IMG/VR virus record: IMGVR_UViG_3300045988_094428
Span: 1-64,000 of that record
Direction: 5' to 3' (one strand)
Length of the DNA stretch: 64,000 bases
Source: a virus
In this document: one piece after another, positions 17,138-64,000 of the stretch
Layout: each line of letters opens with the position of its first letter
Position numbering within the stretch: position 1 is the first letter of the stretch
Made by a program: the position numbers and the translations under genes
The notes under the pieces: model-generated
What the model saw: the letters and a program-made list of their open reading frames with translations, nothing else
Database searches by the model: none
Told to the model about the DNA's origin: nothing

Positions 17138-17212
17138 GCGGATATAGTTTAGATGGTTAGAACGCCACACCGAAATGTGGAGACGTGGGTTCGAGTCCCA
17201 CTTATAGTCGTG
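17138..17212 (+). ncRNA. tRNA-like element, probably a pseudo-tRNA
   Basis: Canonical D arm (GTTT-agatggtta-GAAC) and T arm (GTGGG-TTCGAGT-CCCAC). The anticodon stem CCACA/TGTGG encloses only 6 nt. The acceptor stem does not pair. Confidence 0.3.
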
Positions 17213-19630: not shown

Positions 19631-19718
19631 GCGCTCGTAGCTAAGTTGGTATAGCACCGGACTTTTAATCCGGGGTGGATTATTCCTATCGTGGGTTCAA
19701 GTCCCACCGGGCGCACCA
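19631..19718 (+). tRNA. Class II-architecture tRNA with anticodon TTT (Lys-reading anticodon on a long-variable-arm scaffold), CCA encoded
   Basis: Acceptor GCGCTCG/CGGGCGC, D arm GCTA/TAGC, anticodon arm CCGGA-CTTTTAA-TCCGG (perfect), 17-nt variable arm with GGA/TCC stem, T arm GTGGG-TTCAAGT-CCCAC. Confidence 0.5.
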
Positions 19719-20540: not shown

Positions 20541-20564
20541 TATTTATGAATAGGAGATGGTTGC

Positions 20565-21095: not shown

Positions 21096-21293
21096 GGTAA
21101 ATCTGATTATCGACAGTTCCTATTAGATGAACTAAATGGGGTTCAGTCAGAACTCGACGAGACGAACGGTTTGCTTCAGTCTTGTGAAGTGTATCAGTCC
21201 GACTATTACAACCAGCAGTTGTTGTTTATAGAGCAAAAGATAGACTTCATAAATTCTGAATTAAAAAATTTAGAATGACCTCTTGACTTCTTG

Positions 21294-28063: not shown

Positions 28064-28075
28064 TGAGGTGACGTA

Positions 28076-29734
28076 ATGGCAAATTATACAATTTACCATC
28101 TTCATACCATGCTAAGTAATGCAGTAACAAATATCGACTCAGTTACTACGTTTAAGCAATACATAAAAAGAGCACAAGAGTGCGGTATGACCGCACTTGC
28201 TTTTTCAGAGCATGGTAATATTTTTGAATGGGTTCACAAGAAAGACGCTGTTGAAGCCGCTGGTTTGAAATATATTCATGCAATGGAGGCATATCTTACA
28301 GAGCGCATTCCAGATGAGGGCGAAGAAAAAATTCGTGATAACTACCACTGTGTTTTGATTGCCAAAAACTGGGAGGGTGTTAAGGAACTTAACCGTTTAC
28401 AAGGAAAGGCATTCAATAGAACAGACGGTCATTACTACTACGCACCGAGAATTACATTTGCTGAATTATTTGCTACAAGTAATAATATCATTATTACCAC
28501 AGCTTGTGTTGCATCTGCATTATGCAAAGGAACAGAAAGCGCGAAGGCGTCATATCTTAGATTTCTGACGAGACATAAAGATAGATGCTTCTTGGAAGTT
28601 CAGCATCATAATACGCAAAAGCAGTTTGAGTATAATAGATATTTGGCAAATCTGTCTAAGGAAACTGGTCTTAGATTGATTGCTGGTACTGATACGCATT
28701 GTTTAAACGCAGAGCATGAACTTGGTCGTAGCGCACTACAGCGTGGCAAGGGCGTTTTTTTCGATGATGAAGTCGGTTGGGATTTGACATGGAAAACCTA
28801 CGATGAACTTGTCGAGGCATATAGAACGCAAGATGCTCTCAGTGAAGAAGAATATATGTCTGCAATCAATAACACAAATGTTATGGCAGATATGATTGAA
28901 ACCTTTGAACTTGATAGAAGTTTCAAGTACGCAAAGATTTACGATGATGGTGAAAAAGTCCTCCGTGAAAAGTTGTTTGCGCCAGAAACTATCGAGCCGA
29001 TTATCAAGGAGGGATTTTCAAGAGAAGAAGTAACTGCGCGTTTGGAGCAGGAAATTGACACTTTTAAGGCTTTGAACGCAACTGACTTTATTCTTCTCGA
29101 AGACCATATTGTGCGTTGGGAGCATTCGCATGATATGTGGCAAGGCCCTGCGCGTGGAAGCGCCGCTAGTTCCTTGGCTTTGTACGCTTTGGGCGTGACA
29201 GAAGTGAACCCATTGAAATATGGATTTTATTTCTGGCGATTCATGGATAAATCTAAGTACAGCTTGGCTGATGTTGATATGGATAACTCGGCAAAAGACC
29301 GTGATAAACTGAAGTTCTGGATGTTGAACGACCACCTAGACCTTCCGAATGTCAAGACTTGTGAAATTATTACGTTCAACACAATCGCATTAAAGGGCGC
29401 AATTCGTGATATTGGACGTGGATTGGATATGCCTCTCGATGAGGTTGATACGATTGCAAAAGCTGTTCATGAAGTAGCAGTCGATGAAGAAAAGATTGTT
29501 ACTATTGATGATAGCTGGCGTAAGAAATATCCAGAGTTGTTCAAGTACGTTGATATTGTTATTGGCACTATCGTTAGCATCGGTTCTCATCCGTCTGGTG
29601 TTGTTGTTTCCGACCATGACATTGAATCGGAATTTGGCCTGTGCTATCTAAAAGATGACCCCTATCCTGTCTCCTGCATCAATATGAAGGAACTTGATTC
29701 CCTTAATTTTACCAAACAGGATGCCCTTGGGTAA
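28076..29734 (+). CDS. dnaE: DNA polymerase III alpha (DnaE-like), N-terminal portion (PHP domain through the finger region); reading frame leaves the polymerase around 29711-29734
   Basis: PHP-domain start YHLHTMLSNAV...ALAFSEHGNIFEW. C-terminal end ...CINMKELDSLNF aligns to the DnaE LLKMDF box. Confidence 0.6.
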   Translation: MANYTIYHLHTMLSNAVTNIDSVTTFKQYIKRAQECGMTALAFSEHGNIFEWVHKKDAVEAAGLKYIHAMEAYLTERIPDEGEEKIRDNYHCVLIAKNWEGVKELNRLQGKAFNRTDGHYYYAPRITFAELFATSNNIIITTACVASALCKGTESAKASYLRFLTRHKDRCFLEVQHHNTQKQFEYNRYLANLSKETGLRLIAGTDTHCLNAEHELGRSALQRGKGVFFDDEVGWDLTWKTYDELVEAYRTQDALSEEEYMSAINNTNVMADMIETFELDRSFKYAKIYDDGEKVLREKLFAPETIEPIIKEGFSREEVTARLEQEIDTFKALNATDFILLEDHIVRWEHSHDMWQGPARGSAASSLALYALGVTEVNPLKYGFYFWRFMDKSKYSLADVDMDNSAKDRDKLKFWMLNDHLDLPNVKTCEIITFNTIALKGAIRDIGRGLDMPLDEVDTIAKAVHEVAVDEEKIVTIDDSWRKKYPELFKYVDIVIGTIVSIGSHPSGVVVSDHDIESEFGLCYLKDDPYPVSCINMKELDSLNFTKQDALG

Positions 29735-31088
29735 ACAATCCTGCCCAAGTAAAAGCGAGTTATATGCTGGGAAGTGCTTAGAGCCTCAGTTACCAAAGTG
29801 TGACAATACTGAGGATTGCACAATCAGCAGGCACGATAAGTTCTGCCTCAACGACTATGGGAATATCCCAACTGTCATAGAGTGATTTATGACAGTAACC
29901 TCGCTGAAATGATATAGTCTGGTCTGCATTTAATAGTGCAGAGTCAAGCAGAAATGACTTGACATTTTGTTTGCTTTCTGATATAATATATGTAAAGGTG
30001 GTGATTGTATGGCGAAAGCAAGATATACGAAAGTGTAGTTCTATAATGAAATACTCCGGTTGTATAAAGAGTATGGCGAGATAAACCAAAATATCTACGC
30101 AAAACACACAAGTCTTGATGTTAGCTTTAGACAGTATTGTAATAAGTACGGTGGATTAAAGCAGATATGTAAAGACCTTGGAATAGAGTATAGCTATTAT
30201 AATGAAGTTTCCAAAGAGCAAGCGCTTGAACGTGGGCGAATGTTGCTAGAGCAATATGGATTCTTGCGAAAGGAACTTTGTCAAAAGAACGGAATATCAT
30301 CTAGTACAGTTGCGAAACTGTTTGGAAGTTATCAAAACTTTTATAAGGAAGTTGGATATAACACAGACTTTCGTAGAGATGTTCCAGTTGAAGCTGTAAG
30401 AAAAGATATACTCGAATTTATAACCGAAACTGGTTCTAAGTCAATTACAGACTACAAGAAAGCGCATCGGTATTCACAATCTATAATTGATAGATGTGGT
30501 GGGTGGCATACAATTCTTGTTGATATTGGAGTAGAACCAAAGAAATGGCGTAATGGTAAAGACAATATAATCAAACAGACACGTGAATTGATAAACAAAT
30601 ATGGTTATCTGTCAAGTAAACTAATAGAAGATAATTGCGATTTTACTTTGCAAGCGTTGGAGTATTACTTAGGAAACGCTGATAGTATTTGCAAATATTT
30701 CGGTAATGAGCATTTATTTGACTACGGCAGAAGTAGTCAAGAACTCAGAATAGCAGAGTTACTCGAAGATATTCTAGGTGTCGGGAATTTTTCACGTGAA
30801 GTTGCATGGGATTGGTTGTTGTCAGACAGCGGCAATCATCTGTATGTGGACTTTTATATTGATTCTTTAAAAGTTGCGATAGAATATGACGGTGAGCAAC
30901 ACTACAAATACGTTGAAAGGTTTCATAGAAATTATGATGGGTTTCTTGAATATCAGCGTAGAGATAATATAAAGAGTTCGTTGCTTGCAGAACATAACAT
31001 CAAACTTATTAGAATATCATATACGCAAGAAATATCAGAAAAATATCTAAGAGATATATTAAGCAAACAAAATTAACAAAATTACGTG
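29711..31088 (+). mobile_element. ~1.35-kb intervening sequence splitting dnaE (putative group I intron, boundaries approximate), carrying an endonuclease ORF and an internal promoter
   Basis: The DnaE alignment resumes in the next ORF (xDNVGIINE... vs TLTIINW...; AIMQEPQMAFVQEFCGYDFLRADKLRKIIGKK vs the DnaE YQEQVMQIA...GADLLRRAMGKK). Internal promoter gactTGACAttttgtttgctttctgaTATAAT at 29959-29988. Confidence 0.4.
30060..31076 (+). CDS. Endonuclease with C-terminal DUF559/Vsr-like PD-(D/E)XK domain, encoded inside the dnaE intervening sequence
   Basis: VDFYIDSLKVAIEYDGEQHY...RDNIKSSLLAEHNIKLIRI matches the Vsr-like restriction-endonuclease fold common in free-standing and intron-encoded HEGs. 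Confidence 0.5.
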   Translation: MYKEYGEINQNIYAKHTSLDVSFRQYCNKYGGLKQICKDLGIEYSYYNEVSKEQALERGRMLLEQYGFLRKELCQKNGISSSTVAKLFGSYQNFYKEVGYNTDFRRDVPVEAVRKDILEFITETGSKSITDYKKAHRYSQSIIDRCGGWHTILVDIGVEPKKWRNGKDNIIKQTRELINKYGYLSSKLIEDNCDFTLQALEYYLGNADSICKYFGNEHLFDYGRSSQELRIAELLEDILGVGNFSREVAWDWLLSDSGNHLYVDFYIDSLKVAIEYDGEQHYKYVERFHRNYDGFLEYQRRDNIKSSLLAEHNIKLIRISYTQEISEKYLRDILSKQN

Positions 31089-32621
31089 GATAACGTGGGT
31101 ATTATCAATGAAACTTGTAAATTAGCTGGCATCGAGAGATTGTCACCTAAGACGATTGACTTTGAGGATGATGCAGTTTGGAATAGTATCAAGGAAGATA
31201 CATCTTTGATTTTTCAGATGAACTCCAACTATGGTCAGCGCACAGTTGATAAGATGTTGTCACCAGAGGTTTACAGCAAGATTAAGAAGCAGATTCCTAA
31301 TATGACACGTTTGGATTTGCTGACGTTCATCAATGCTCTTATTCGTCCTTGCGGCAAGGGAGTTTATGATGATGCGACGAACGGCATCGTATCTAAAACA
31401 GGAATCAGAGAGATTGATGATTTGCTTGGTTCTTCTATGGGCTATGCAATTATGCAGGAACCTCAGATGGCTTTTGTTCAGGAGTTCTGTGGTTATGATT
31501 TCTTGAGAGCTGATAAACTTCGTAAGATTATCGGCAAGAAACTTGGTACACGTGACCAGCTTCCTATTATTAAGGAAGGTTGGGAAAAGAACGCAAAGGT
31601 CAAATATCATTTAACCGATGAGCAGTCTGACAAGATTATCAATCCGTTCTTACAGTGTATTCTCGATGCTACACGATATTCATTCTCGCTGGTTCATAGT
31701 TTGAGCTATTCTTGCATCAGCTATGAATGTGCATATCTGCGTTATCATTATCCGTTACAGTATTTGACTTCTTGCCTTAACGCATGGAACGGTGACGATA
31801 ACAAGACAGCAGAAGCTATTGAATACGCAAATAGTCGCAAGGTAAAGATTCTTGCGCCTAAGTTCAGACACGCAAAGGCAGAATATTTCTATGACCTTTC
31901 TACAAACAGTATTTATAAAGGTACGAGTAGTATCAAGGGATTAAATGCAGGGTATTCTGATTTCTTGTATTCTTTGAAGGATAATTCTTACAAGACATTT
32001 ACAGACCTACTGTACGATATTCAGGCATCTGGTATGCCTCGTGACCAAGTTGAAACTTTGATTAAACTTGACTACTTTGAGGAGTTTGGCACTTGCAGAG
32101 AGTTGGCAACAATCTTTAAGCAGTTCCAGTTCTTTAAGAAGGGCGAAGCGAAAACGATTGCTAAGAGCAAGATTCCAGACGAGATTACAATGAGCATTAT
32201 TAAACGCAATGCTAACGAAACCGAAAAGCAGTTTAATAAGCTGAATTGCCATAATATCTTAAATGAGATTGAACAGTACATTATGACAATGAATCTTGGT
32301 GATGTTGACATTAAAACCAAGATTGCTAATCAGCTTGAGTATATGGGTTACATTGGCATTAAGACTGACAAACCCGAAGATAGACCTAAAATTGTCATTC
32401 TTGAAATGAAGGTTATGAAACAGCGTGAATCTGTTGAGCCTTGGGGCGTTATCATTGATGCGCAGTCTATCGGTTCTGGTAAGCGCAGTTCTTATACAGT
32501 TCCTTATAAACTGTATAAACAGTGTAAGTTCAACAAGAATGATGTAATTAAGATTCGTGATTGGTATAAGAACAAACGTGGTTATTTCTATATTACTGAT
32601 TACGAGTTCGTGTTTATGTAA
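31086..32621 (+). CDS. dnaE: DnaE-like polymerase, C-terminal portion (palm/fingers to C-terminus)
   Basis: MQEPQMAFVQEFCGYDFLRADKLRKIIGKK and downstream segments align to Pol III alpha. Confidence 0.6.
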   Translation: MDNVGIINETCKLAGIERLSPKTIDFEDDAVWNSIKEDTSLIFQMNSNYGQRTVDKMLSPEVYSKIKKQIPNMTRLDLLTFINALIRPCGKGVYDDATNGIVSKTGIREIDDLLGSSMGYAIMQEPQMAFVQEFCGYDFLRADKLRKIIGKKLGTRDQLPIIKEGWEKNAKVKYHLTDEQSDKIINPFLQCILDATRYSFSLVHSLSYSCISYECAYLRYHYPLQYLTSCLNAWNGDDNKTAEAIEYANSRKVKILAPKFRHAKAEYFYDLSTNSIYKGTSSIKGLNAGYSDFLYSLKDNSYKTFTDLLYDIQASGMPRDQVETLIKLDYFEEFGTCRELATIFKQFQFFKKGEAKTIAKSKIPDEITMSIIKRNANETEKQFNKLNCHNILNEIEQYIMTMNLGDVDIKTKIANQLEYMGYIGIKTDKPEDRPKIVILEMKVMKQRESVEPWGVIIDAQSIGSGKRSSYTVPYKLYKQCKFNKNDVIKIRDWYKNKRGYFYITDYEFVFM

Positions 32622-36374: not shown

Positions 36375-37974
36375 TATAGGTAGTAAATTTTAGGAGGTTT
36401 GACATGAAACTAACAGAGTGTCAGGCCAGCACAGACTATACGAAATACTGGCTATCACCATACACCAATTCACAATATCCAGATTTTAAGACACCTTATC
36501 TAAAGATAAAAGAGGATTCAGCGAAGGATGTAAAAGTCGATGATATTGTTTATTGGGTAGAAAGAAGTCCTAGCGCAGCGATTGAGAGAAAAATATCTGT
36601 GCAGTGTGGGATTATCGTAGACGTATATCCAGACTGTTATGTTGCTAATCATCTTGCAGTTGCCGAATATATCACGTTCAGACTATATGACGAAAAGACG
36701 GAAAAGTTGTTTACAGATACCGCATCTTGGCGTGAGTATTTTCAGAATGTATCTTGGAGAAAATATCCGTCTAAAAAGGAACTGTCCGACAGTAGACATC
36801 TGTTTACTTTCAATCGGAAACCGCTGTATGAACTTATTGGTGGTAAACCTCCGAATTTGAAAGATATTGATGCTATCAAGGCGGCGTACAAATCTGGTAT
36901 TATTTGTAAGAGAAATGATGTAGTCGGATATGCGTCTTGCCCATATAGTGAGATTGATAAGGGCAGTTGGAAGCCGATTTTGAAGAGTGATTACGAGTCT
37001 GACAACACAACTCTTTCTAAGAGTCTTACATTCGCAACGTATGACGATGCAGTAAGATTAAAAGACTGTATTGAGCATGAATATGACTGGGTTTCTGGTT
37101 TAACCGATGAACAGTACACGCTTCTTGAAATGGACAAGGCTTTAAATAAACTTGTCCGTGACGGTATGTTGGAATCTGATGCGCGTAGAATTGCCTACTT
37201 TATGTTAAAGCAAAAGAAGTTAGTAGATATTGAGTTTCGCACTCTTCACGGCAAATTCCAATGGAGGAGCTACGACAATAAAAAGTGGAACAATGTAAAT
37301 CCTGAGAATATCCCACTTATCGAAGATGAGGTGTAGTTATGACCCATGTAACCGATGCTGAACGCTATCTGGCAGAATTAAAAAGTGCAATGGATTACTA
37401 CGGTAATATGCTCGATAAGCAGCATGGCAGTAACCATGACGCATACGTTAAGTATGATGTTGCACGATGTCAGTATAACGCCGCAAAAAGAATGATGGAA
37501 CTTATGAAGAGGTAAAATATGATTGTAGAGAAGAGTTTTATTGATGCTATCAAGTATGCGAAGAAGAACAGCGTTATGATTCGGCCAGAATATTGGAGTC
37601 TTTGGATTCAGTATGTTAAGTCCAATGGTGGGTTTTTCTGGTGCGACAAGAGTGGTAGAATTACTGAAGACCATGGCCTCGATAAGAGCGTAGTGGTCTG
37701 TGATAAGATTCTCGATGTTACCAGATGGGAATTTATGTGTGATGAGCTTGTTGACGATGCGGAGGGCAGCAATGACGGAAACCGAGTATAATCAGCTTGT
37801 TTTAGATTTGGCAAACGAATCGGAAGATACGCTGTATTTTATGTTTAGAAATTCTATTCGTCAGGTTAGATTCACAAGCCCTTACGAAAATGATTATCGG
37901 TACGTTGTTGCGCGACACAACGCAATTTGTGAGGCGTTTAAGAAAAAGACTGGACATAACATTTTGGAGGACTT

Positions 37975-43227: not shown

Positions 43228-45185
43228 TTAGTTCTTGCGTATTTTGGGTCTACACAATTTTTGGTTTTTCACCGGCTGTTATCGCGTTCCTCGCGTCAAA
43301 ACCTTCGAAGTGGTACGGAGTCGCATTTATTGTCTGGTTTATTCTATTGCTGATTAGAGTATCGCCTACCGGGTCACAGATTCCTCAGTATAGAGCCTTT
43401 TGTAAATATAGATTGCATTGCCCTAATGAACTTCTCCCTAAGATGAAGTATGCACAGATTAAACAGTTGTTATCTGTCAAAGAACTTCGTGCAGATTTTG
43501 ACTATGTTAGCTGTAATTACTATGAAGATAGATTTGTGTACGATGATTATTATGACTGGTCTTGTAAAGATATGAGACATAATTTTGTAATTTGTCATAT
43601 TGCTAGTAAAAACAATAACTATGTCGTTTTAAACCCAGCGACATATTTTGATTACTTCGCAATGTGCTTGACTGTTAGTAAGGGTTTGAAAAGTCTGTGT
43701 GCAACAGAAACGGTCGATGCACAGTTAAAAAATCTAAGAGATATTAGGGAAGTTGTACGCGAAGTGCAGGATAGAGAAGTAGCAAAGATGCAAAATATTG
43801 CATCAGAAAATCTTGAAATCGAGAATCGTATTATTGGCGATAGAAAGGTTAAGATAAAACAAAAATGAGTTACGATATTGTTGTCACAAAGGTAAATGAG
43901 CTTTTGGAAAAGTTTGTTGGTGGCGAGATTTTCTTTGACCAGCTTGACGATTCTATCAGAGCGAGTAAAGAGATTCTTGCAATGCTTGACCACGATGTTA
44001 AGATAATGTATCCGCACGACAAATATAAGTATGTTGTTACCGGTAAAACCGGAATTGCATATTTCAATTATGGTTTTACTACAGACCTGATTGTTCCGGG
44101 CGGCTTGCGTAAATCTAACACAAAGTTAGACCTTTCCGAATATGTAAAGTCCGGTGAGAATTACGTACTTATTGATGATTCTTACTTTATGGGGCGCACA
44201 GAGGCAGTTATTCGGAAAGCACTCAATGAGTGCAGTGCTAATTTAGCCGGAACACTCGTTTTCTATGATGGTTGTATCGAGAAGCGTTCTTGGGTCACTT
44301 CTATGTATCGTTACTACGATAATTATGACGTTCTTGGGAACAGATTGGAGAAATAGTTATGAAGATTAAGGTTGAATTTACTGTCGAAAATAGCATGGAC
44401 GCGGCGCAGATTGACGAGAATCTGCAAAAGGCTATTGCCGCTGGGGTTACTGAAACGACTGTCGCAGGACAGATTCGTGATGAGTTTAAGCAAATGCTCA
44501 TGGGACAGATGTGGGGCAACGATATTAACGGTAAACCTGTTGTTGCAGATATTGTCGGTGTTGAGGTATTTGCAAATTCTAATGATACTTCCGTATTTTC
44601 TGAATGGCACAAGGAGGATTAAATGGGCGAGTGGTATATTGTTCGTGGTAATATGGATGATGGCTGTCGTAAGTACACCACAAAAGTTATCGTGTATGCC
44701 GAGACTGTAAACGAAGCAAAGTCTAAGGCAAAAAAGCATTTGGAGACTGATGCAGATTGCCTGTTTACTCCTGCTGACGTAAGCCGCCTTGATAAGAATA
44801 AGGTATACTAATTATGGAAGATTTTGATATTAGCAAAATCACTATGAGTAAGGTGCATCTTGATGAATATAAGGTAAATCCATATTCAGAAGAACTTACT
44901 TATACGCTCGTCAATGGTGATGGTGATGATATGGGCGGCAGTAGAGTATTGCGCTTTACCGATGATGGCACATGGTCATTATGTAATAAGGACGCGGCTA
45001 TCGTCCGTAACCATGTCTTTTTAGAGCCTTGGAATGGTGATAGGATTCTTAGTGCTATTTTTTACGATGAGCATATCGCCGCAGTAAAGATTCACGATGG
45101 CTGGATTCCTCTTAGTGAATGGGGCAATTCGTGCGTCTGCTTCAGAATGGGTGTTGAATACGCCAAAAACAACTAATAGTTGTAA

Positions 45186-51341: not shown

Positions 51342-51568
51342 ATAAGCACAAAGAAACGAAAGTAGTTTAGACTTGCCCAACAGGAGGGTTTTAAGATGAA
51401 ATTTGGAATTGGTGATATTGTTGCAATCATTGTGATTGTGCTGAAAGTGTTTGGTTTGGTCACTGTGTCGTGGACAGCAATTATCAGTTGGTGGCTTGTC
51501 TATTGCCTCGCAAGCTTTGTTTTGCTTTTTGTTACGCATCAATCTAAGTAAGTAGGAGGTAATACACG

Positions 51569-53035
51569 ATGAGTTTTAAAACGCAACAACTGCCCGGTAC
51601 AATACCTGTGGGTGGCTTTACTACACAAAAGTTGAGCGATGTTAAACATGGCATACCAGAGAAGTTTGAAGAGCGTTGTCTTGCAAGAGCTGTAAAAGAT
51701 GGCCGTTTCAACACGGCTATTGGCTTGGTCGAAGCGTTGTCTAATGCAGGATACGAGGCATACCTTGTCGGAGGCTGTGTTCGTGATATGCTTCGTTGTA
51801 AGACTCCAAAAGATTACGACATCACTACATCTGCAACACCAGAGCAGATTGAATCTGTATTCAATAATGAGCAGATTATCGAAACTGGCATCAAACACGG
51901 TACTGTTACGGTTATGATTGATGGCGTAGGTTATGAAATTACCACGTTCCGCATTGATGGTGACTACTCTGATGGTCGGCATCCAGACAGTGTAAAGTTT
52001 GCTAAAACCATTGAGGAAGATTTAGGCAGACGTGATTTTACTATTAACGCTATGGCGTATAATAAAGAACGCGGCTTTGTTGACCCTTATAATGGATTTT
52101 GGCATTTGCACTGCGAGACGATTCGTTGTGTCGGCAATCCTGTTCTTAGATTTCAAGAAGATGGTTTGCGTATTCTTCGTGCTATGCGTTTCGCTTGCGT
52201 ATTTGGTTATAATATTGACGAAGATACGGCTTATGGTATGCGCGTCTGTAAAAAGAAGTTGGAATGTGTATCTAAAGAGAGAATCCGCGCTGAACTTGAT
52301 AAGATGATTTCAACATATAAGTTCGGTGATATTATGATGAAGTTCAGCGATATCCTTGTAGAAATTATCCCAGAACTTGATAATCTAACAGGAAATATCT
52401 CATATACAGAGAAGCCGAGTCGCTTTGACCTTTATACAGACATTGCTCATGAATTTATCGAGGGTGAAAATCACCGCGATAATGTTACTTCCTATGCGTT
52501 ACTGTTCCGCAATCTCACAATGTTTGAAAGCGAAATTCGCAAGCATTTGACTTTGGAAGAAATTGCAACTGCGGCGAGTGCTGTTGCACACAACGTCATG
52601 AAAGACCTGAAGTTCGATAACACTACTATGGAGTCTGTATGTCGTATTATCAAACAGTCTTTTGAACCAGTTCCGATGAACAAGTATAAGATGCGTGTTC
52701 TTATCAATAAACTTGGTAAAGAAGATGCCGAGCGTATGCTCGACTTGATGTTGATGCAGAGCAATATTCCTGCTTGCTACTCATATAGTTGGGAGCAGTG
52801 TTATGATTCCATGAGTATTTTCTATGATGTTAAAGATGAAAACACGTTCACTGTTAAAGACCTTGACATTAACGGATATGACCTTATGGAAATTGGCTTT
52901 AGAGGTATTTACATCCGCAAGACTTTAAATCACCTTTTGCATCTATATTTCTTAGATTCAATCGAGAATAAACATGATGCCTTGTATGCAAAAGCATCCG
53001 AGTTATTTAATTTAAGTGGTGGCAGTATTTTATGA
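51569..53035 (+). CDS. cca: CCA-adding enzyme / tRNA nucleotidyltransferase
   Basis: Head-domain motif EAYLVGGCVRDMLRCKTPKDYDITT (GGxVRD...DxD) of class II CCA/poly(A) polymerases. Confidence 0.7.
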   Translation: MSFKTQQLPGTIPVGGFTTQKLSDVKHGIPEKFEERCLARAVKDGRFNTAIGLVEALSNAGYEAYLVGGCVRDMLRCKTPKDYDITTSATPEQIESVFNNEQIIETGIKHGTVTVMIDGVGYEITTFRIDGDYSDGRHPDSVKFAKTIEEDLGRRDFTINAMAYNKERGFVDPYNGFWHLHCETIRCVGNPVLRFQEDGLRILRAMRFACVFGYNIDEDTAYGMRVCKKKLECVSKERIRAELDKMISTYKFGDIMMKFSDILVEIIPELDNLTGNISYTEKPSRFDLYTDIAHEFIEGENHRDNVTSYALLFRNLTMFESEIRKHLTLEEIATAASAVAHNVMKDLKFDNTTMESVCRIIKQSFEPVPMNKYKMRVLINKLGKEDAERMLDLMLMQSNIPACYSYSWEQCYDSMSIFYDVKDENTFTVKDLDINGYDLMEIGFRGIYIRKTLNHLLHLYFLDSIENKHDALYAKASELFNLSGGSIL

Positions 53036-58052: not shown

Positions 58053-60512
58053 TTAATAATTAAATTCTCTGTCTAAGCCTGCACCAAAACGAATGATATT
58101 TATTTTTTTTGATATTGGTCTTATTACAACAACATCCCACGCTTGTTCTGTTGCATCACCTTCTGTTCTTGACGGAGAAACAAGTCCATAAGTTGTATCA
58201 TAACCAGTAATAGCTCTGATTGAATCAGAATTAACATCTGTTTGTTCAAATTTTCCACACGTTGAAGCAATAGATAACCATGGTTCTGTAAAAGCATAGT
58301 CGCAATGACTATGACCGAATAACTGAATAAATTTACCACCACTTGAAATGAACGTAGAAATAGCATTGTTAATTGCTTCAGACCTTGCTTCTGACGGAAT
58401 CTTGTTGCTAAAATTCTGATTCTTTTGTGTAGACATATGCTCACAAAGAACCACAGTCTTATCTGTGTTCAGCGCTGTATCTATAAACCATGTCTTTGTA
58501 TCTTCTGAGATTACATAAGCATTCAAATAATTTGTATTGATAAATACTACCCTTATGTTCAACTCTTTATAATCAACATAGAAATCAGTTCCATTAGTGG
58601 CTTTGTTTACGATTGCATTTTTAGGGGTCGCAGACATAAATGCTCTGTAAGTCTGCCCTATATCGAATTTAGGACTTGGGTCATAATTCGTATCATGGTT
58701 CCCAACAGCAAACAAGTACGGGATTCCGATACTGTTGAAAGCTGATAACATATAGTCTGCTTGTGATAAAGATGTTTCAATATTACTACTTCCATTTATG
58801 TTATCACCAAGATTTGCAATGAAATCGCAATGAATTTTCTTAGCAAAATACTTTATATTTTTAATGGTTTCGTCAAAATTCTGAAATACTATTGAAGTAG
58901 GTGCATAATGAATATCTGTGATTTTCGGAAACACAAGACAAGGCTCTGTCATGCAATTTCTAACAGAAGCGATAGTTTCGTTCATTTCCGAAACAAATTT
59001 TTCTGATAAATCGTTTTCCAGCTTAGTTATTCTTTTTTCGTGGTCTGACAGCACGGAATCATATACCTTAACTGTTATGCCAAGTTCTTCAAGTGTGATA
59101 GTCGAAGATGTATCTGTTTTTGAGCAAGCGATGCAAATATAAGAATCTACAGATGGAATCCAATCCATAGGTTCTGTTTCCCATCCACCCCGCAAAACAT
59201 TCGTGTACTTTCCATCAGCAAGTGTCCATGCACTTCTTGCAAACTGTTGCCCTAAAATAGTTTCAATATGAACCTTTGTATTTGCTTTTATGAATAGCAA
59301 TTCTGAAAAAGATATTCTTGTCGTTGAACTAACTTTAATTGGTTTTGCTCCACCGGTTTGTCTTGACCATGATACTCTTGCCCAATCTGTAAAAAGCCTC
59401 GACCCATCTTCAAGAAGCATTTTTAACACATCTACATCGTTTCTTAGCGCAGATGTTTTTTCTACAGTGTCAGCAACAGTACCTTGTAAATGCGCATCCT
59501 TTGCCCAATTTGCTGAAATCTTTCTGTTACTATTTACATTAAGTGCAACATAATAACAATCTCTCTTGTTGTTAGTAACTGTTCTTTTATTACCATATGT
59601 TGAATCAAGTGCAAAGTAGTCGATGTATTTTTTGTCTGCATCATATAGTTGGTATTGGTTAGTCGGAAGTGCTTCGCCATCATCTGAATAGATAGTAAAT
59701 ATAGTTCCTTTTGGAATCTCAAATGGTACAAGCTCCGTGCTATTAATTGTACTTTTGTAAAATCCAACAATACCAGAAATTTTAGTTATATCTTCTTTTA
59801 GCTGACTTTCCGCATCGGTAGCTCTATCAATTTCACCCTACAAGTCCTTTCTAATAGAAGTAACTTTAGACGATTCTGCTTTACCAGCCAATTTATCTCC
59901 GACAGTTTTTGCATCAGCGGCATAACCAGAAATTGTAAGTGTTGTGTCTGTCTTTAACGATGCGGCACTTTTAGCGGCAGCATCAGCAGCCGCTTGAGCC
60001 GCTTTTGATGCTGCAAGTGTATCATTATAATATTTGGCAGCGATAGCATTAAAACTATCAATAGCTGCTTGAAGTGCATTTTCATCTTCGATAGGTTCGC
60101 CAGTATCAAGTAATCCTTCCTCAACCTAAAAAGTAGCTGGTTTTGTATGAAGAATATATTGTGATACGTTAGTCATATCATTTGTATCATATATTGATAC
60201 GTCATAAGTTACAGTGCCTTTAGCACTTGTGACATTAGAATCAAGAACCCAGTCGAACAGAACGAATTGCTCGTTACCTTCTGTAATAACCTCTCTGCTA
60301 TTACAGAAAAACTGGTCATAACGATTCAGAGAATTGACATATCTGACAGTAAGAATCTTATCGGTAATATCAATACCATCAATCACTGATGGAATCTTAA
60401 AGGTAATATATCTTGAATCATTATCATTTACAACAGCCAATTCTTCTGTCGCGCTTGGAACGATTGTTCTATTTACAATTTCAAAAATATAAGTTCCGTT
60501 CAAGCTATTCAA
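58053..60512 (-). CDS. Tail-fibre-like protein (~819 codons) with a C-terminal metallophosphoesterase domain, containing two in-frame TAG codons (plus 60126-60128 and 59838-59840)
   Basis: A single continuous frame. ...HTKPATF-TAG-VEEGLLDTGEPIEDENALQAAIDSFNAIAAKYYNDTLAASKAAQAAADAAAK... and ...SIRKDL-TAG-GEIDRATDAESQLKEDI... The downstream segments have no start codon of their own. C-terminal calcineurin-like motifs GDNINGSS and FAVGNHDTNYD. RBS AGGAGG + TTG start at 60512. Confidence 0.6.
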
Positions 60513-61002
60513 CCTCCTAAATTAAAAATAAGGGTGTAGCATTAAGCTACACCCAACTTATTAAATGTACTTATCGTCAGTAATATACTCGTACTCTTCT
60601 GGAGTAATCCAGCCCTTTTTGGTTACATTATAGACCATCTTTTTAGTCCAGAAACCAGAATCGTAGTAATACTCAGCTTTCTTTCCGTGTGCGGACAGTT
60701 CCATATCGTCCATATATTGTACTTCCATATCTTCCATATCTTCCATACCGCCCATACTAGCGGTTTTCTCTTCTTCGACAGGTAGTTCAATATCACTCAT
60801 AACAGCAATATACTCAATCAAAGATTGTTGATTGCTAATCTGAGCATTGCGATGTTCGACCATCTTCTCCTCGTGAGGATTCATAATCGCCTTTTGAAAA
60901 ATCATAATTCTACCTCCATAAATCATTGTAGAATTTATTCATTCGCTATATCAATCTATATGAGTTGCCATGCTCCGCATGAGCAACCCAACAGCTATAG
61001 CA

Positions 61003-61956
61003 CTAATCTATTTTTTCTTTGGTTCTACGACCTTTTACAACAAGTTTAACCATTTTACGTAATTTACGCTTTTCATTCTTAACATTATCTCCAAGGATTG
61101 ACATAACGACCTTGCCGGTTTCGGTAAGTCTGAACTTAAATCCCAAGAATGGAATACCCTTACCAACTCTATAGAGTTTAGTTTTCTTAGGATGCAATTC
61201 AAGACCAATTTTAGCTAGTTCTTCTTGAATCTCGTGCATACACTTGATTAAGTAATTTCTATCGTGATGAATAAGAATAAAGTCATCCATATAACGAATA
61301 TAATACTTAATGTGCATACGTTCTTTAATCTTATGGTCAAGTTTATCCAGAACAGAAATGCCAGCAATCTGAACAACTTGGCTACCGGGATTATACCCGG
61401 TATCACCAAGATATTGTTCATTTAATATTCTACAGACTCTATCTGCATATTCTACTGGTAATTTCTCTCTGAACAAGGCATTTGTTGTATCATGCCGCAT
61501 ATTATCATAATAGTGCTTAATGTCGCATTGCAGAACCCAAGCATCAAGACCGTTCTTTCTGTAGCATCTTTGCAGATGACATTTTAAACGGCCTCTAGCG
61601 AAATCAGTTCCTTTACCCTTTTGACAAGCACAATTATCATAAATAAAACTTCGAGTCATTAACGGATACACTAAATTATCATTAAGACTGCGTTGATATA
61701 CCCTGTCTCTGAAAGCTATGCTCACAGCAATTCTTTCTTTCGGATGAGTGATATGAACAGTCTTAGTTGGACGTGGTTGGTATGTTCCGTTTGCAAGTTG
61801 TTCTTCTAGTTTAAGAACCTATTCAATTCCATGAATATAGAAATTAGCGACAGATTCTTTCCAGCTAACATTTTTCTTGCACTTATATAAAGAATCAAGT
61901 AGGTGCTCGAAGTCTAGGACATTTACTACTTGATTCGATTCCTAATTATTATTCAT
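61003..61956 (-). CDS. Diversity-generating-retroelement reverse transcriptase with two in-frame TAG codons (plus 61942-61944 and 61819-61821)
   Basis: MNNN-TAG-ESNQVVNVLDFEHLLDSLYKCKKN...YIHGIE-TAG-VLKLEEQLANGTYQPRPTKTVHITHPKERIAVSIAFRDRVYQRSL...CACQKGKGTDFA...VLQCDIKHYYDNMRHD...GSQVVQIAGISVL...YIRYMDDFILI. All RT motifs 1-7 present, including YMDD and the DGR-type SQ motif. Frame verified across both TAGs. Confidence 0.8.
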
Positions 61957-62150
61957 TAAACTTTGACACAACAACTAAACTAAGCCGTATATAGGCGTAC
62001 TGGCTCGAAAACCAACGCCATCGGCATAGAGTGGTTTAGTTATCTTTTATAATCTTCCAAGCAAGATAACAGGGTTATAACCTCCTTGTGTTTGAAGTCG
62101 AGAACCTAGCTTGCGCTATACGTAAGATTTTTTATTAGGGACTTTCAAAT

Positions 62151-62270
62151 ACAATCGGGCGAGAACCTATTCGAGTTGCTCGCGTTGTTGTTGTTGACGT
62201 TACCGCTAGAGTTGACATTCCACGTATTATTAGCATTGCCACGATTAGCAGACCGCAAGCGCACATTCTG
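62151..62270 (-). repeat. DGR template repeat (TR)
   Basis: 120-nt near-identical copy of the 3' end of the target gene; differs from VR at 15 positions, all adenines in TR on the coding (minus) strand. Confidence 0.85.
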
Positions 62271-62301
62271 AATCAGGTTATAACCCAAATATATATAAAA
62301 A

Positions 62302-62745
62302 TTAAGTTTCGTCTTTTTCTTTAGATTCTTTAAGGAGATGTCCATACCGAGTACAATCGCTGTGATTCCACTTACGAATTAAACCTCTGACTGAAATAAC
62401 AGATTCAGACCAATACTTAATACGGCTGGCTCTTAGATGATATAACGTCTATGCCAAGTATATAAGGTTTAATAGTGTATTACACGCTTTTGCCGCATCT
62501 CTTTGGAGCTTATCGCGCTCCTGCCATCTTCCAACATTATCGTCAACTCTAATGTTGTTTGCATCCATAAGATTATTAAAGATGGTCAATGCGGAATCTT
62601 GGATTTTTAGTTTGACCGATTCATCATAATCAGGAATAAATACATTCTTGTTAGATGTGATTCTTAAAGTGTAGACTGCAAGCTCTCTGGCTTGCATAAC
62701 GACTTCTAGTCTATTTTCTTTTCTTTGACCAGCCGGAACAGACAT
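62302..62745 (-). CDS. avd: DGR accessory variability determinant (Avd-like four-helix-bundle protein), 98 codons + in-frame TAG (plus 62449-62451) + 49 codons to TAA
   Basis: Position between VR and TR typical of avd. Small basic helical protein. The annotated 98-aa ORF is short for Avd and the frame stays open for 49 more codons after the TAG. Confidence 0.5.
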
Positions 62746-62885
62746 TGTGCGGCCTCCTTAATTTAATTTTTATATATTTGCTTTTATTGTTAATATTCGG
62801 ACAACAGTATTTCTCTAAGGAAATTACTGCTTTTAATCTAAATAGAAAATCTTGCACGAAAAGTATTCGTGCAAGATTACTAGGA

Positions 62886-64000
62886 TTAGCAGATGACACA
62901 AGCGGGCGAGAACCTATGCGAGTAGCTCGCGTTGTAGCTGCCGACGTTACCGCTAGAGTAGACAATCCACGCATTACTAGCATAGCCACGAAAAGCAGAC
63001 CGCAAGCGCACATACTGTGCGCTAGAAGTGTTCTCAACAGCATAGGTAATCATCTGAGGATAAGTACCCCACTGAGCCAACGGAGTAGTAGTACCAGCAA
63101 CACGCTTCCAGTATTCCCAAGCGTCTCCCTCGCCAGATTTCTGAGGATTCACATAAATCTGCTCAAGTGCTGGCAAGAATACCTTATCGTAGGTAACGTC
63201 AGAAGTATTACCAGCAATATCGTCATTTACGGTATTTGGGTAGGTAACAATCTTAACAGGCTTGATAGCATCTAAAAGGTCGGCTGGCATACCAGTCAAG
63301 AAACCGTCATGGGATGCCAACTCGTCAGGTGCAATATCCCACTCATCCTGTGCTACCCACCAGTTACCCTTAGTAGCAGAGCTATTTAGGTACTGACGTA
63401 GCGCGGATGTTTTCCACCTGTTCCATCCATAAGCCATTTCCTGACAGGAGTTCAGGTTGCCGTTACGCTTATCATGCTTCATAGTACCAAGATTCGTACC
63501 AGATGCGGTAAATGTCGGAGTAATGTTGTCTTCAACCTTAGTCTTACCGTCTGCCGCCCAAGTATAGACACGCCAGTTAGCTTTTGGTTTGTCAGGTGCT
63601 CCATAGCAACCGGAAATACGTCCACCAGCAGGAACTGGCTTAGTAAGAGTGAAGCTGACAATATCACCAGCCGCAACATTGTTACCCCACTTAGTTTCTA
63701 TCGTAAAATAGTAAGTACCAGCGGCTAATTCGGTATCACACTTCAAAAATGCTCTCTGGTGACTAAACTGTACACCAAACGGATGCGCATAGTGTGCCTG
63801 AATAGTCATACCCGGTACGGTTTCGCCATCCTGAAGTGAGTAATTGCCGAAATGAGCAACGTGCCAATTATAGTTCGCATATTCCTTATTTGAACTAGCG
63901 GTATCAATCCACTTATCCTTAAACTGGTCGCCAAAATCATAAACATATTCTGCATAACCAGCACGAACTAGAGTAGCAACTTCTGCCCAGTTACCAGACA
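62886..64000 (-). CDS. DGR target protein (tail fibre / receptor-binding protein), partial at window edge, with C-terminal variable region
   Basis: Open frame runs from the window edge to 62886. C-terminal ...GYASNAWIVYSSGNVGSYNASYSHRFSPACVIC encoded by the VR. Confidence 0.7.
   Translation of the reverse strand, partial: SGNWAEVATLVRAGYAEYVYDFGDQFKDKWIDTASSNKEYANYNWHVAHFGNYSLQDGETVPGMTIQAHYAHPFGVQFSHQRAFLKCDTELAAGTYYFTIETKWGNNVAAGDIVSFTLTKPVPAGGRISGCYGAPDKPKANWRVYTWAADGKTKVEDNITPTFTASGTNLGTMKHDKRNGNLNSCQEMAYGWNRWKTSALRQYLNSSATKGNWWVAQDEWDIAPDELASHDGFLTGMPADLLDAIKPVKIVTYPNTVNDDIAGNTSDVTYDKVFLPALEQIYVNPQKSGEGDAWEYWKRVAGTTTPLAQWGTYPQMITYAVENTSSAQYVRLRSAFRGYASNAWIVYSSGNVGSYNASYSHRFSPACVIC
62898..63017 (-). 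repeat. DGR variable repeat (VR) at the 3' end of the target gene
   Basis: Aligns to TR 62151-62270 with 15 mismatches, every one at a TR adenine (coding strand). Confidence 0.85.

What the first reader, a model, noticed from the sequence alone, without database searches (positions are those of the whole stretch)
61003..63017. Complete diversity-generating retroelement targeting the tail-fibre C-terminus, with an amber-containing RT
The VR (62898-63017, 3' end of the minus-strand target gene) and the TR (62151-62270) are 120-nt repeats. They differ at 15 positions, and every difference is an A in TR on the coding strand. This is the adenine-specific mutagenesis signature of DGRs.

The gene order is target-VR, avd, TR, RT. 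The RT carries all group-II/DGR RT motifs (FRDRV, QKGKG, CDIKHYY, GSQ..Q, YMDD), and its N-terminal 90 codons contain two in-frame TAGs. A DGR that looks functional, with a conserved RT and a clean A-only VR/TR pattern, and whose RT and avd require TAG decoding has not to my knowledge been described.
Basis: seen in the sequence. Interest (0 to 1): 0.85.

Follow-up and report, generated by a model that had tools for sequence, protein, structure and literature searches.

The report
Phage tail-gene mutator needing stop-codon readthrough
A gut phage carries a complete and evidently active targeted-mutation cassette (a diversity-generating retroelement) whose enzyme genes contain TAG "stop" codons that the phage reads as glutamine; this is real, but the same combination has already been reported in other gut phages.

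Summary
VR (62898-63017) and TR (62151-62270) are 120-nt repeats with 15 mismatches, and every mismatch is at a TR adenine (chance about 6e-9).

The cassette is a canonical BPP-1-type DGR in the order target/VR, avd, TR, spacer, RT:
- The RT's best solved relative is Bordetella bRT.
- The Avd is a four-helix bundle that matches solved Avd structures.
- The target is a DUF6273 protein, a known DGR target in gut Firmicutes phages.

Four near-identical relatives share the TR, but each has a different VR, changed only at TR adenines. Sixteen close target homologues vary only at the TR AAY codons. The lineage is therefore diversifying.

The supposed stop at 61003 is one of them. Avd has one TAG.

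TAG means glutamine here. TAGs alternate with CAG/CAA in close relatives, and all 14 full-length Avd homologues have Q at the TAG position. Late genes carry in-frame TAGs and early genes do not. Relatives encode a tRNA with a CUA anticodon and a Gln-like acceptor stem; it lies outside this window.

The novelty claim fails. DGR RTs with in-frame TAGs are published for code-15 gut phages and for Zeta crAss-like phages. This is a new member of a known kind.

The parts
62886..64000 (-). DGR target gene. It is a DUF6273 protein, 403 codons in relatives, and its 5' end (about 32 codons) lies beyond the window. Stop codon TAA at 62886-62888. No in-frame TAG in the visible 370 codons.
   Evidence: Pfam DUF6273 6.9e-12. 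Full-length 402-404 aa homologues. L001 7861-9072 gives the full ORF.
62898..63017 (-). Variable repeat (VR), covering the last 40 codons of the target but three.
   Evidence: 120-nt repeat of TR with 15 mismatches, all at TR adenines. It differs between near-identical genomes only at TR-A sites. The protein is hypervariable at exactly these codons in 16 homologues.
62898..62914 (-). IMH-like GC-rich 3' end of VR (GGTTCTCGCCCGCTTGT). The TR counterpart (IMH*) is GGTTCTCGCCCGATTGT at 62151-62167.
   Evidence: The single C/A difference is fixed as C in all four VRs, while the rest co-varies between TR and VR in L002.
62848..62878 (-). 13-bp hairpin with a 5-nt loop, 8 nt downstream of the target stop codon. 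It is in the position of the cruciform/hairpin that supports retrohoming in BPP-1, and may also be the terminator.
   Evidence: DNA fold -17.2 kcal/mol for the 81-nt stretch, z = -7.0, 0 of 200 shuffles as good. Coordinates.
62302..62745 (-). avd, 147 codons plus TAA. In-frame TAG at codon 99 (62449-62451). AAGGAGG ribosome-binding site upstream.
62151..62270 (-). Template repeat (TR), non-coding, with 34 adenines.
   Evidence: Nearly invariant among WIN, L001, L002 and L004 while the VRs differ.
61957..62150 (-). TR-RT spacer, presumed part of the DGR RNA, with conserved hairpins.
   Evidence: RNAalifold on 5 relatives gives 45 pairs, 11 of them with compensatory changes. An example is the stem GGCGUUGGYU/AGCCAGUACGCC, kept as GUCGUUGACU/AGUUAGUACGGC in L005. 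Only 5 sequences were used, 4 of them close, so this is suggestive only.
60910..61956 (-). DGR reverse transcriptase, 348 codons (61956-60913). In-frame TAGs at codons 5 (61942-61944), 46 (61819-61821), 318 (61003-61005) and 337 (60946-60948). The last codon is also TAG (60910-60912), overlapping the GGAGG ribosome-binding site of the next gene.
   Evidence: Pfam RVT_1 2.4e-17. PHROG RT 5.6e-77 over residues 12-347. Best PDB hit Bordetella bRT 8ub7_A, 8.5e-20, residues 8-343. C-terminal 30 aa conserved in relatives of 70% identity. tblastn to RTs of known DGR phages covers up to residues 347-348. Codon positions verified.
58053..60512 (-). Neighbouring late gene, not part of the DGR: an 819-codon fibre-like protein with a C-terminal metallophosphoesterase domain and two in-frame TAGs (60126-60128, 59838-59840). 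It is independent evidence for TAG decoding.
   Evidence: Both TAGs are CAG in L001.

Best explanation
This is a complete, BPP-1-type diversity-generating retroelement in the late (tail/lysis) region of a roughly 150-kb gut phage. The host is probably a Clostridia/Firmicutes bacterium, and the phage reads TAG as glutamine in its late genes.

Proposed mechanism. Steps 1 to 3 are inferred from the established DGR mechanism. Step 4 and the sequence parts of step 5 are shown here.
1. The TR and its downstream spacer are transcribed.
2. The RT-Avd complex reverse-transcribes the TR RNA and misincorporates opposite adenines.
3. The cDNA replaces the VR at the 3' end of the DUF6273 target gene. It is guided by the GC-rich IMH and the downstream hairpin.
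4. Up to 34 adenines in 14 AAY codons can be rewritten, without ever creating a stop codon.
5. RT (four internal TAGs) and Avd (one TAG, before its fourth helix) are made full-length only when TAG is decoded as Gln. The decoder is presumably a phage suppressor tRNA(CUA) with a tRNA-Gln-like acceptor stem. That tRNA is seen in close relatives but lies outside this window. DGR proteins, like the other late proteins, should therefore appear only once suppression is active.
For: DGR anatomy:
- A-only TR/VR pair with adenines confined to codon positions 1 and 2.
- RT closest to Bordetella bRT along its full length and to RTs of known DGR phages of Faecalibacterium and Roseburia and phages nd4/nd12.
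- Avd supported by a PHROG profile and by fold.
- Hairpin downstream of VR, and an IMH that co-varies between TR and VR.
- The DUF6273 target is a published DGR target domain.

Activity in the lineage:
- WIN, L001, L002 and L004 have RTs 97-99% identical to the window's and almost the same TR, yet four different VRs.
- 15/15, 15/15, 14/15 and 20/20 of the differences are at TR adenines. L006 has 20/21.
- 16 target homologues of at least 83% identity vary only at the AAY codons.

TAG = Gln:
- In 23 of the 28 pairwise comparisons where an in-frame TAG of one genome aligns to a different codon in a close relative, that codon is CAG (14) or CAA (9).
- RT codon 46 is CAG or CAA in all four relatives, and RT codon 318 is CAA in L003 and Q in bRT.
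- Avd codon 99 is Q in 14/14 full-length homologues, and two database clusters are truncated exactly there.
- Sequence conservation continues past every TAG.
- In-frame TAGs number 7 in 2006 late codons against 0 in 9050 early codons.
- Relatives' tail genes, including a 2136-codon probable tape-measure ORF, carry TAGs at differing positions.

Suppressor tRNA:
- Rfam tRNA hit at L041 7262-7358, 42.3 bits against a gathering score of 29. The anticodon loop is CUCUAAA; the acceptor is UGGGGUG/CACCCCA followed by G73 and CCA.
- The same sequence is identical in a second 149-kb relative and in four metagenome contigs.
Against: - No CUA tRNA is present in the 64-kb window. Its presence in this genome is inferred from relatives.
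- The suppressor candidate is atypical: 97 nt with a 25-nt extra arm. ARAGORN does not call it, and its charging identity is untested.
- TAG is not purely a sense codon. The RT ORF itself ends in a TAG conserved in all 7 loci. Two or three early genes end in TAG with a back-up TGA one or two codons later. Decoding is therefore probably competitive suppression, not full reassignment.
- The TAG at RT codon 46 is unique to this genome. I cannot show that this particular copy is active.
- RT motif 4 reads GSQVVQ, not the usual GxxxSQ.
- The RT start codon has no obvious Shine-Dalgarno sequence.
- No read-level VR heterogeneity could be examined.
Confidence: 0.88

Rival explanations
1. The DGR in this genome is a recently decayed relic. 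The TAGs in RT and avd are true nonsense mutations, so no functional RT or Avd is made, and the VR/TR pattern records past activity.
For: RT codon 46 TAG is unique to this genome, with CAG or CAA in the four closest relatives. No suppressor tRNA is in the window. The RT ORF ends in TAG, so TAG can terminate.
Against: - The TAG at RT codon 5 is conserved in four relatives whose VRs have all diversified independently.
- Replacements are almost only Gln codons, including two-step CAA changes.
- Reading frames and residue conservation continue beyond every TAG, and no TAA, TGA or frameshift has accumulated.
- Other late genes, such as the fibre gene and the probable tape-measure and minor tail genes of relatives, also carry in-frame TAGs.
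- A CUA tRNA exists in relatives.
Confidence: 0.05
2. TAG is decoded, but not as glutamine. The suppressor's long extra arm makes it a class II-like tRNA, charged with Ser, Leu or Tyr.
For: The CUA tRNA of the relatives has a 25-nt insertion in the variable region. In bacteria, long variable arms are typical of tRNA-Ser, tRNA-Leu and tRNA-Tyr (textbook knowledge).
Against: - TAG alternates with CAG or CAA in 23 of 28 cases, and with Q in 14/14 Avd homologues. bRT has Q at RT codon 318.
- The acceptor stem has U1-A72, G2-C71, G3-C70 and G73, which matches bacterial tRNA-Gln (my knowledge of GlnRS and GatCAB identity elements; sequence).
- This phage's own tRNA-Thr and tRNA-Lys also have long variable arms, so a long arm does not mark class II identity here.
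Confidence: 0.05
3. The repeat pair is an ordinary duplication or recombination remnant rather than a DGR, and the RT belongs to another retroelement such as a group II intron, a retron or a defence RT.
For: NCBIfam's best-scoring model is the group II intron RT/maturase (90 bits), with weaker hits to Drt3a and retron RTs.
Against: - All those hits are far below their curated cut-offs (90 against 300 bits, and so on).
- The best solved relative is the DGR RT bRT, aligned end to end.
- An Avd lies next to it.
- The 15/15 adenine-specific mismatches have P of about 6e-9.
- There is comparative hypervariation at the same sites.
Confidence: 0.01

Closest known systems
Bordetella phage BPP-1 DGR (mtd-avd-TR-brt), the prototype
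   Same: - Identical gene order: target with a 3' VR, then avd, TR, spacer and RT.
- RT aligns with bRT along its whole length (8ub7_A, 8.5e-20).
- Adenine-only mutagenesis, AAY-rich TR, GC-rich IMH and a hairpin downstream of VR.
   Different: - The target is a DUF6273 protein, not Mtd. My model gave no C-type-lectin match, but the VR part was of low confidence.
- RT motif 4 is GSQVVQ instead of IGSLTSQ.
- RT and Avd contain in-frame TAG codons.
- The host is probably a Firmicute, and the phage is a ~150-kb genome with a long probable tape-measure gene.
DGRs of gut Firmicutes phages with DUF6273 targets: Faecalibacterium phages Lelie, Roos, Pioen and CP11, and phages nd4/nd12 ('tentaclins') (PMC11792537, PMC10743442)
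   Same: - The VR maps to the C-terminal end of a DUF6273 domain.
- The RT is 32-39% identical to the RTs of nd12, nd4, FP_Brigit, FP_Toutatis, Lelie and Roseburia phage Shimadzu.
- The habitat is the human gut.
   Different: - Those phages are small (30-60 kb). Nothing in the passages I read mentions stop-codon recoding in them.
- Here the target is a single 403-aa protein without the Ig-domain chain of tentaclins.
- Here the DGR genes need TAG decoding.
DGRs in TAG-recoded (code 15) gut phages: I57_PsAC1, I79_PsAC1 and I123_PsAC1 (Lou et al., bioRxiv 10.1101/2023.08.07.552389) and Zeta crAss-like phages (PMC12386605)
   Same: The RT has several in-frame TAGs and lies next to a tail-associated target whose VR changes over time or between strains. 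TAG is read as Gln. Suppressor tRNAs are phage-encoded.
   Different: - One of the three PsAC1 phages was predicted to infect Bacteroides vulgatus and the hosts of the other two were unknown; the Zeta phages are crAss-like, a group that infects Bacteroidetes. All are about 100 kb.
- This phage has Firmicutes-type lysis and tail genes: XkdX, and an M15 peptidase with PG_binding_1.
- Its Pol III alpha is closest to those of Clostridioides and Bacillus phages.
- Here Avd is also TAG-dependent.
- The target gene itself has no TAG.
TAG-recoded Clostridia siphophages such as phAss-1 (PMC10607447), and the late-gene recoding model of Borges et al. (bioRxiv 10.1101/2021.08.26.457843)
   Same: A 130-150 kb gut phage, probably with a Clostridia host. 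TAG is read as Gln in late and structural genes, while early genes are compatible with the standard code. The suppressor tRNA is phage-encoded.
   Different: - No DGR is mentioned for phAss-1.
- No close nucleotide or polymerase similarity to it was seen in the phage collection.
- The suppressor here is an atypical 97-nt tRNA that ARAGORN misses.

Membership tests
Diversity-generating retroelement (DGR) | TR/VR repeat pair whose differences are confined to adenines of TR | tested here: met
   15/15 mismatches at TR adenines over 120 nt, P about 6e-9. The same holds in relatives: 15/15, 14/15, 20/20 and 20/21.
Diversity-generating retroelement (DGR) | Reverse transcriptase of the DGR clade encoded next to TR | tested here: met
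   RVT_1 2.4e-17. Best PDB relative is Bordetella bRT 8ub7_A, 8.5e-20, residues 8-343 of 348. tblastn hits to RTs of known DGR phages. NCBIfam group II, retron and Drt models all fall far below their cut-offs.
Diversity-generating retroelement (DGR) | Motif 4 signature [LIV]GxxxSQ, the hallmark used by DGR finders | tested here: inconclusive
   Aligned to bRT IGSLTSQ, the sequence is PGSQVVQ: G and Q are kept and S is replaced by V. L005 has GSQMIQ. Published DGR RTs also deviate, for example GxxxSP in Epsilon crAss-like phages (PMC12386605). I treat this as a variant of a hallmark, not a failed defining feature.
Diversity-generating retroelement (DGR) | VR at the 3' end of a protein-coding target, and a non-coding TR | tested here: met
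   VR covers codons -43 to -4 of the target ORF. In the VR frame, TR reads into a stop codon. TR lies in the avd-RT intergenic region.
Diversity-generating retroelement (DGR) | Accessory variability determinant (Avd); typical of the BPP-1 class, not universal | tested here: met
Diversity-generating retroelement (DGR) | IMH / IMH* at the 3' ends of VR and TR, and a hairpin downstream of VR | tested here: met
   A GC-rich 17-mer differs at one position between VR (C) and TR (A). That position is fixed in all VRs, and the rest co-varies in L002. A 13-bp hairpin lies 8 nt after the stop codon, z = -7. Their function in homing is not testable here.
Diversity-generating retroelement (DGR) | Variable residues displayed on a C-type-lectin (or Ig) fold | tested here: inconclusive
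Diversity-generating retroelement (DGR) | Ongoing diversification of VR | tested here: met
   The test is comparative only. Four different VRs sit on almost one TR in genomes whose RTs are 97-99% identical to the window's. Sixteen homologues are hypervariable only at AAY codons. Read-level heterogeneity is not testable here.
TAG-to-Gln recoded phage (genetic code 15 type) | In-frame TAG inside conserved genes, with conservation continuing downstream | tested here: met
   RT has 4, Avd has 1 and the fibre gene has 2. Residues downstream of the TAGs are conserved. Relatives' probable tape-measure and minor-tail genes carry TAGs at differing sites.
TAG-to-Gln recoded phage (genetic code 15 type) | TAG positions correspond to Gln in homologues | tested here: met
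   23 of 28 non-TAG pairwise comparisons are CAG or CAA. Avd codon 99 is Q in 14/14 homologues. RT codon 318 is Q in bRT.
TAG-to-Gln recoded phage (genetic code 15 type) | Phage-encoded suppressor tRNA with anticodon CUA | tested here: inconclusive
   None is in the window. A 97-nt tRNA with anticodon loop CUCUAAA and a Gln-like acceptor stem is present in two ~149-kb relatives and four metagenome contigs. The corresponding part of this genome is outside the window.
TAG-to-Gln recoded phage (genetic code 15 type) | Recoding confined to late genes, with early genes compatible with the standard code | tested here: met
   0 in-frame TAG in 9050 codons of 22 early or replication genes, against 7 in 2006 late codons.
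TAG-to-Gln recoded phage (genetic code 15 type) | TAG no longer used as a terminator | tested here: not met
   The RT ORF ends in a TAG conserved in 7 loci. Early ORFs 36380-37336 and 43853-44356 end in TAG with a TGA back-up 2 and 1 codons later. This fits competitive suppression rather than complete reassignment, as also noted for other recoded phages (PMC12386605).

The most novel reading that the evidence does not exclude
Two linked ideas that my data do not exclude.

1. The unusually high TAG load of the RT works as a translational gate. Four of its 15 Gln codons are TAG, including codon 5, against roughly 1 in 10 across the late genes overall. Mutagenic retrohoming would then be possible only after the phage suppressor tRNA is expressed late in infection.

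2. The suppressor is a new kind of tRNA. It has a canonical CUA anticodon arm plus a second arm in the variable region (CAGGA-CUCUGAC-UCCUG, preceded by UUAAGGCA). This second arm copies the anticodon arm of a tRNA-Gln(CUG). It could serve as a decoy that lets the host's anticodon-reading Gln-charging enzymes accept a tRNA that reads UAG.
Probability: 0.12. Interest if true: 0.75.

Novelty: new member of a known kind. Interest (0 to 1): 0.3.

Why it matters
For annotation: under the standard code this DGR is broken into fragments. The RT is called as 240 aa and the Avd as 98 aa. Truncated Avd clusters already sit in public protein databases. DGR finders run under the standard code are therefore likely to miss or mis-bound such cassettes in recoded phages.

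For biology: it extends the published link between TAG recoding and DGRs to a large gut phage that is probably Clostridia-infecting. One of the three published PsAC1 phages was predicted to infect Bacteroides vulgatus, and the Zeta phages are crAss-like. It also gives a clean natural series: the same TR with at least four different VRs.

The point that could matter more lies outside the finding itself. This is the atypical two-armed CUA tRNA in the relatives, which may explain how a standard-code host is made to charge an amber suppressor with glutamine.

Tried and rejected
- Suppressor tRNA in the window. ARAGORN with default settings, with introns allowed and with a relaxed threshold, plus Rfam, found 15-16 tRNAs or tRNA-like genes and none with CUA. 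I considered whether the insertion-bearing tRNA at 18819-18932 could expose a CUA anticodon and rejected it. The plausible anticodons are UAU or UUC.
- Walking the related 149.8-kb contig used 7 of the 8 viral scans. There were no tRNAs in L001-L039. The CUA tRNA turned up only in L041 and L042. About 26 kb at the start of that contig was never examined.
- A degenerate pattern for the two-armed tRNA found only the same two viral contigs.
- A looser metagenome pattern gave mostly chance matches. Four contigs carried an essentially identical tRNA, so there is no covariation to test its fold.
- Avd by Pfam, NCBIfam and PDB sequence search gave nothing. It was resolved only by PHROGs and fold comparison.
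- The C-type-lectin fold of the target was not recovered because the VR region of the model is of low confidence.
- No close annotated phage relative exists in the GenBank phage collection, so no annotated full genome could be read.
- Simple counts of ORF length under alternative codes did not discriminate. Codon-by-codon comparison with relatives did.
Full report
**1. The observation**

VR 62898-63017 and TR 62151-62270, both read on the - strand, are 120 nt with 15 mismatches, and every mismatch is an A in TR. Similarity collapses immediately outside both ends. TR has 34 A in 120 nt, so the chance that 15 random mismatches all hit A is about 6e-9. No further VR-like copy exists in the window or in the flanking 20 kb of relatives. 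In the VR reading frame, all 34 TR adenines lie at codon positions 1 or 2. There are 14 AAY codons, and all 15 observed changes alter the amino acid.

**2. The components**

RT:
- It has RVT_1 (2.4e-17) and a strong PHROG RT hit over residues 12-347 (5.6e-77).
- Its best solved relative is the Bordetella phage DGR RT (8ub7_A, 8.5e-20). The alignment runs from residue 8 to 343 of 348.
- Group II intron, retron and Drt models of NCBIfam score far below their cut-offs.
- tblastn finds RTs of known DGR phages of Faecalibacterium and Roseburia, and of phages nd4 and nd12, at 32-39% identity.

Avd (62302-62745):
- It has no Pfam, NCBIfam or PDB sequence hit.
- It matches the PHROG 'Avd protein of DGR' (1.2e-8).
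- It is predicted with confidence as a four-helix bundle (pLDDT 85.9).

Target:
- It is a DUF6273 protein (6.9e-12) of 403 codons in relatives. Its first 32 or so codons lie beyond the window.
- DUF6273 with a C-terminal VR is a published DGR target of gut Firmicutes phages (PMC11792537 and PMC10743442).
- 'Tail fibre' is an inference from position. The gene lies between a minor-tail-protein homologue and other large ORFs on one side, and the XkdX-like and lysis genes on the other.

Other elements:
- A 13-bp hairpin follows the target stop codon (z = -7).
- The GC-rich 3' end of VR differs from TR at one fixed position and otherwise co-varies with it in L002. This is what is expected of IMH and IMH*.
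- The 194-nt TR-RT spacer has conserved hairpins with some compensatory changes. The evidence is thin, with only five sequences.

**3. Is the DGR active?**

A search of viral contigs found four relatives with RTs 97-99% identical and two at 70%. WIN, L001, L002 and L004 have an almost identical TR, but each has a different VR. The differences from TR are 15/15, 15/15, 14/15 and 20/20 at adenines. L006 has 20/21. Among 16 target homologues of at least 83% identity, the protein is nearly invariant except at the codons that are AAY in TR. This is comparative evidence for repeated mutagenic homing in the lineage. It does not prove activity of this particular copy.

**4. The TAG codons**

The TAG at 61003-61005 is followed in frame by CYSCWVAHAEHGNSYRLIqRMNKFYNDLWR. 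That stretch is conserved in the relatives of 70% identity, which have no TAG at that position. It also aligns with the C-terminus of bRT and with other DGR RTs. The RT is therefore 348 codons (61956-60913) with internal TAGs at codons 5, 46, 318 and 337. No ATG, GTG or TTG lies between codons 5 and 46, so an internal start cannot rescue it. Avd has a TAG at codon 99, at the end of helix 3. Without readthrough it would lose helix 4.

Evidence that TAG is read as glutamine:
- Codon by codon, I compared each in-frame TAG with the aligned codon in each of the four closest relatives. In the 28 pairwise comparisons where that codon was not TAG, it was CAG 14 times and CAA 9 times. A CAA change needs two substitutions.
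- All 14 full-length Avd homologues have Q at codon 99. Two database clusters, one with 41 members, are truncated at residue 98.
- The neighbouring 819-codon fibre-like gene has two TAGs, both CAG in L001.
- In relatives, the 2136-codon probable tape-measure ORF and other tail genes carry TAGs at positions that differ between genomes.
- 22 early genes contain none in 9050 codons, against 7 in 2006 late codons. These early genes include an RNA ligase, primase-helicase, a split Pol III alpha and a CCA-adding enzyme.

This is the pattern described for code-15 phages (Borges et al. preprint).

**5. How TAG is decoded**

The window has 15-16 tRNA genes, none with a CUA anticodon. I walked a 149.8-kb relative whose RT is 97% identical to the window's RT. 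A second tRNA cluster lies about 32 kb beyond the window's start. In it, Rfam detects a 97-nt tRNA that ARAGORN misses (42.3 bits; L041 7262-7358). Its features are as follows:
- The anticodon loop is CUCUAAA, giving anticodon CUA.
- The acceptor stem is UGGGGUG/CACCCCA, followed by G73 and CCA. To my knowledge the U1-A72, G2-C71, G3-C70 and G73 combination is characteristic of bacterial tRNA-Gln.
- A 25-nt extra arm sits in the variable region.

The same sequence is identical in a second 149-kb relative and in four metagenome contigs. In two of those four contigs position 73 is A rather than G. Its presence in the window's own genome is inferred.

TAG is not purely a sense codon. The RT ORF ends at a TAG conserved in all seven loci, inside the ribosome-binding region of the next gene. 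The readthrough tails differ in length and sequence. Two early genes end in TAG with a TGA back-up one or two codons later. Competitive suppression fits better than full reassignment.

**6. Comparison with what is known**

- In architecture this is a BPP-1-class DGR.
- In target and RT lineage it belongs with the DUF6273-targeting DGRs of gut Firmicutes phages.
- The combination 'DGR whose RT needs TAG decoding' is already published. Three code-15 persisting gut phages were reported with an 'RT [with] multiple in-frame TAG codons' next to a recoded tail target whose VR changed over three years. Seven Zeta crAss-like DGR RTs were reported with amber suppression.
- What is new is modest: a different, probably Clostridia-infecting, ~150-kb phage lineage; a TAG-dependent Avd; and a GSQVVQ variant of motif 4.

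**7. Verdict**

The coordinates and TAG count need correcting, and the novelty claim is refuted. I rate it a new member of a known kind, interest 0.3. The most unusual item is the two-armed CUA tRNA, which lies outside the window and outside the finding. It is recorded as a lead.

Noticed in passing
L041 7262-7358 (contig IMGVR_UViG_3300045988_127389); identical at L042 2398-2494, L062, L072, L074, L140: A 97-nt tRNA with a canonical CUA anticodon arm and a second hairpin in the variable region. That hairpin (CAGGA-CUCUGAC-UCCUG, preceded by UUAAGGCA) looks like the D-arm end plus anticodon arm of a tRNA-Gln(CUG). The acceptor stem is Gln-like. ARAGORN does not call it. In contig 122016 an ordinary tRNA-Gln(CUG) sits immediately upstream. 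It could be a decoy arm for Gln charging, or a relic of a partial duplication.
   Followed up: partly
window 60910-60912 and the same site in L001-L006: The RT ORF ends in TAG in all seven loci, including the relatives of 70% identity, although TAG is sense elsewhere in the same gene. The codon lies within GGAGGTAGAATTATG, the ribosome-binding site and start of the XkdX-like gene. Readthrough tails are 5 to 31 aa long and not conserved.
   Followed up: partly
window 18819-18932 (+): A tRNA gene (Rfam 44.6 bits) with an insertion of about 40 nt in the anticodon arm. Removing 40 nt between positions 29 and 30 would give a perfect arm, CGUCC-AUUAUAA-GGACG (anticodon UAU). ARAGORN with introns allowed reads it instead as Glu(UUC) with a 34-nt intron. 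This is a non-canonical intervening sequence in a phage tRNA.
   Followed up: partly
window 19328-19415 and 19631-19718 (+): tRNA-Thr(UGU) and tRNA-Lys(UUU) are 88 nt long with long variable arms, which is unusual for these identities. Together with the suppressor, this suggests that this phage lineage tolerates or uses insertions in the variable region.
   Followed up: no
window 17138-17209 (+): A tRNA-like sequence (Rfam 41.1 bits) with three mismatched acceptor pairs and a 6-nt anticodon loop. It is probably a decayed tRNA gene.
   Followed up: no
window 5751-7121 (+), neighbour 7122-8039: An adenylosuccinate-synthetase homologue matches the PHROG annotated as '2-aminooxy adenylosuccinate synthetase', which I read as PurZ-like (1.1e-46; Pfam Adenylsucc_synt 2.7e-27). 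Next to it is a kinase (AAA_33) plus HD-domain protein. The phage may replace adenine by 2-aminoadenine in its DNA. DatZ and MazZ were not looked for.
   Followed up: partly
window 7-2211, 2862-3668, 7122-8039, 11453-12967, 51563-53035 (+): A set of RNA-repair or tRNA-maintenance genes:
- an RNA ligase interrupted by a LAGLIDADG endonuclease domain (intein-like);
- an RlaP-type nucleotidyltransferase;
- a kinase/HD protein;
- a DUF2828/DUF7788 protein that PHROGs calls an RNA-binding protein;
- a CCA-adding enzyme.
These sit alongside about 20 tRNA genes in two clusters.
   Followed up: no
window 28067-29734 and 31077-32621 (+), with ORF 30039-31076 between: DNA polymerase III alpha is split into two ORFs, matching positions 41-600 and 603-1022 of one PHROG profile. 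They are separated by a 345-codon ORF, possibly a homing endonuclease or intron ORF.
   Followed up: no
L041 8614-9178 and L042 4258-4821: A ROOL RNA (Rfam RF03087, about 305 bits) lies inside the second tRNA cluster of the related phages.
   Followed up: no
window-wide: Gln codon usage is sharply split. Early genes and the DGR target use CAG (196 CAG against 58 CAA; the target uses 13 against 0), despite 39% GC. The RT, avd, fibre and XkdX genes prefer CAA (RT 10 CAA, 1 CAG, 4 TAG). This suggests the avd-TR-RT block has a different history from its target.
   Followed up: no
window 36380-37342 and 43853-44362 (+); also 20550-21278: Two early ORFs end in TAG with a TGA back-up two codons and one codon later. 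ORF 20550-21095 ends in TAG and could read on for 60 more codons with a coiled-coil-like sequence.
   Followed up: no
protein P0040: One target homologue has a VR that translates like an unmutated TR (…NVRLRSANRDNANNTWNVNSSGNVNNNNASNANRFSPDCI). This is either a freshly reset VR or an assembly chimera of VR and TR.
   Followed up: no
window 58053-60512 (-) and L001 7416-7835: The fibre-like protein downstream of the DGR has a C-terminal calcineurin-like phosphoesterase domain. Its N-terminal 130 or so residues are paralogous to the 139-aa protein encoded just upstream of the DGR target. This may be a shared baseplate-docking module.
   Followed up: no
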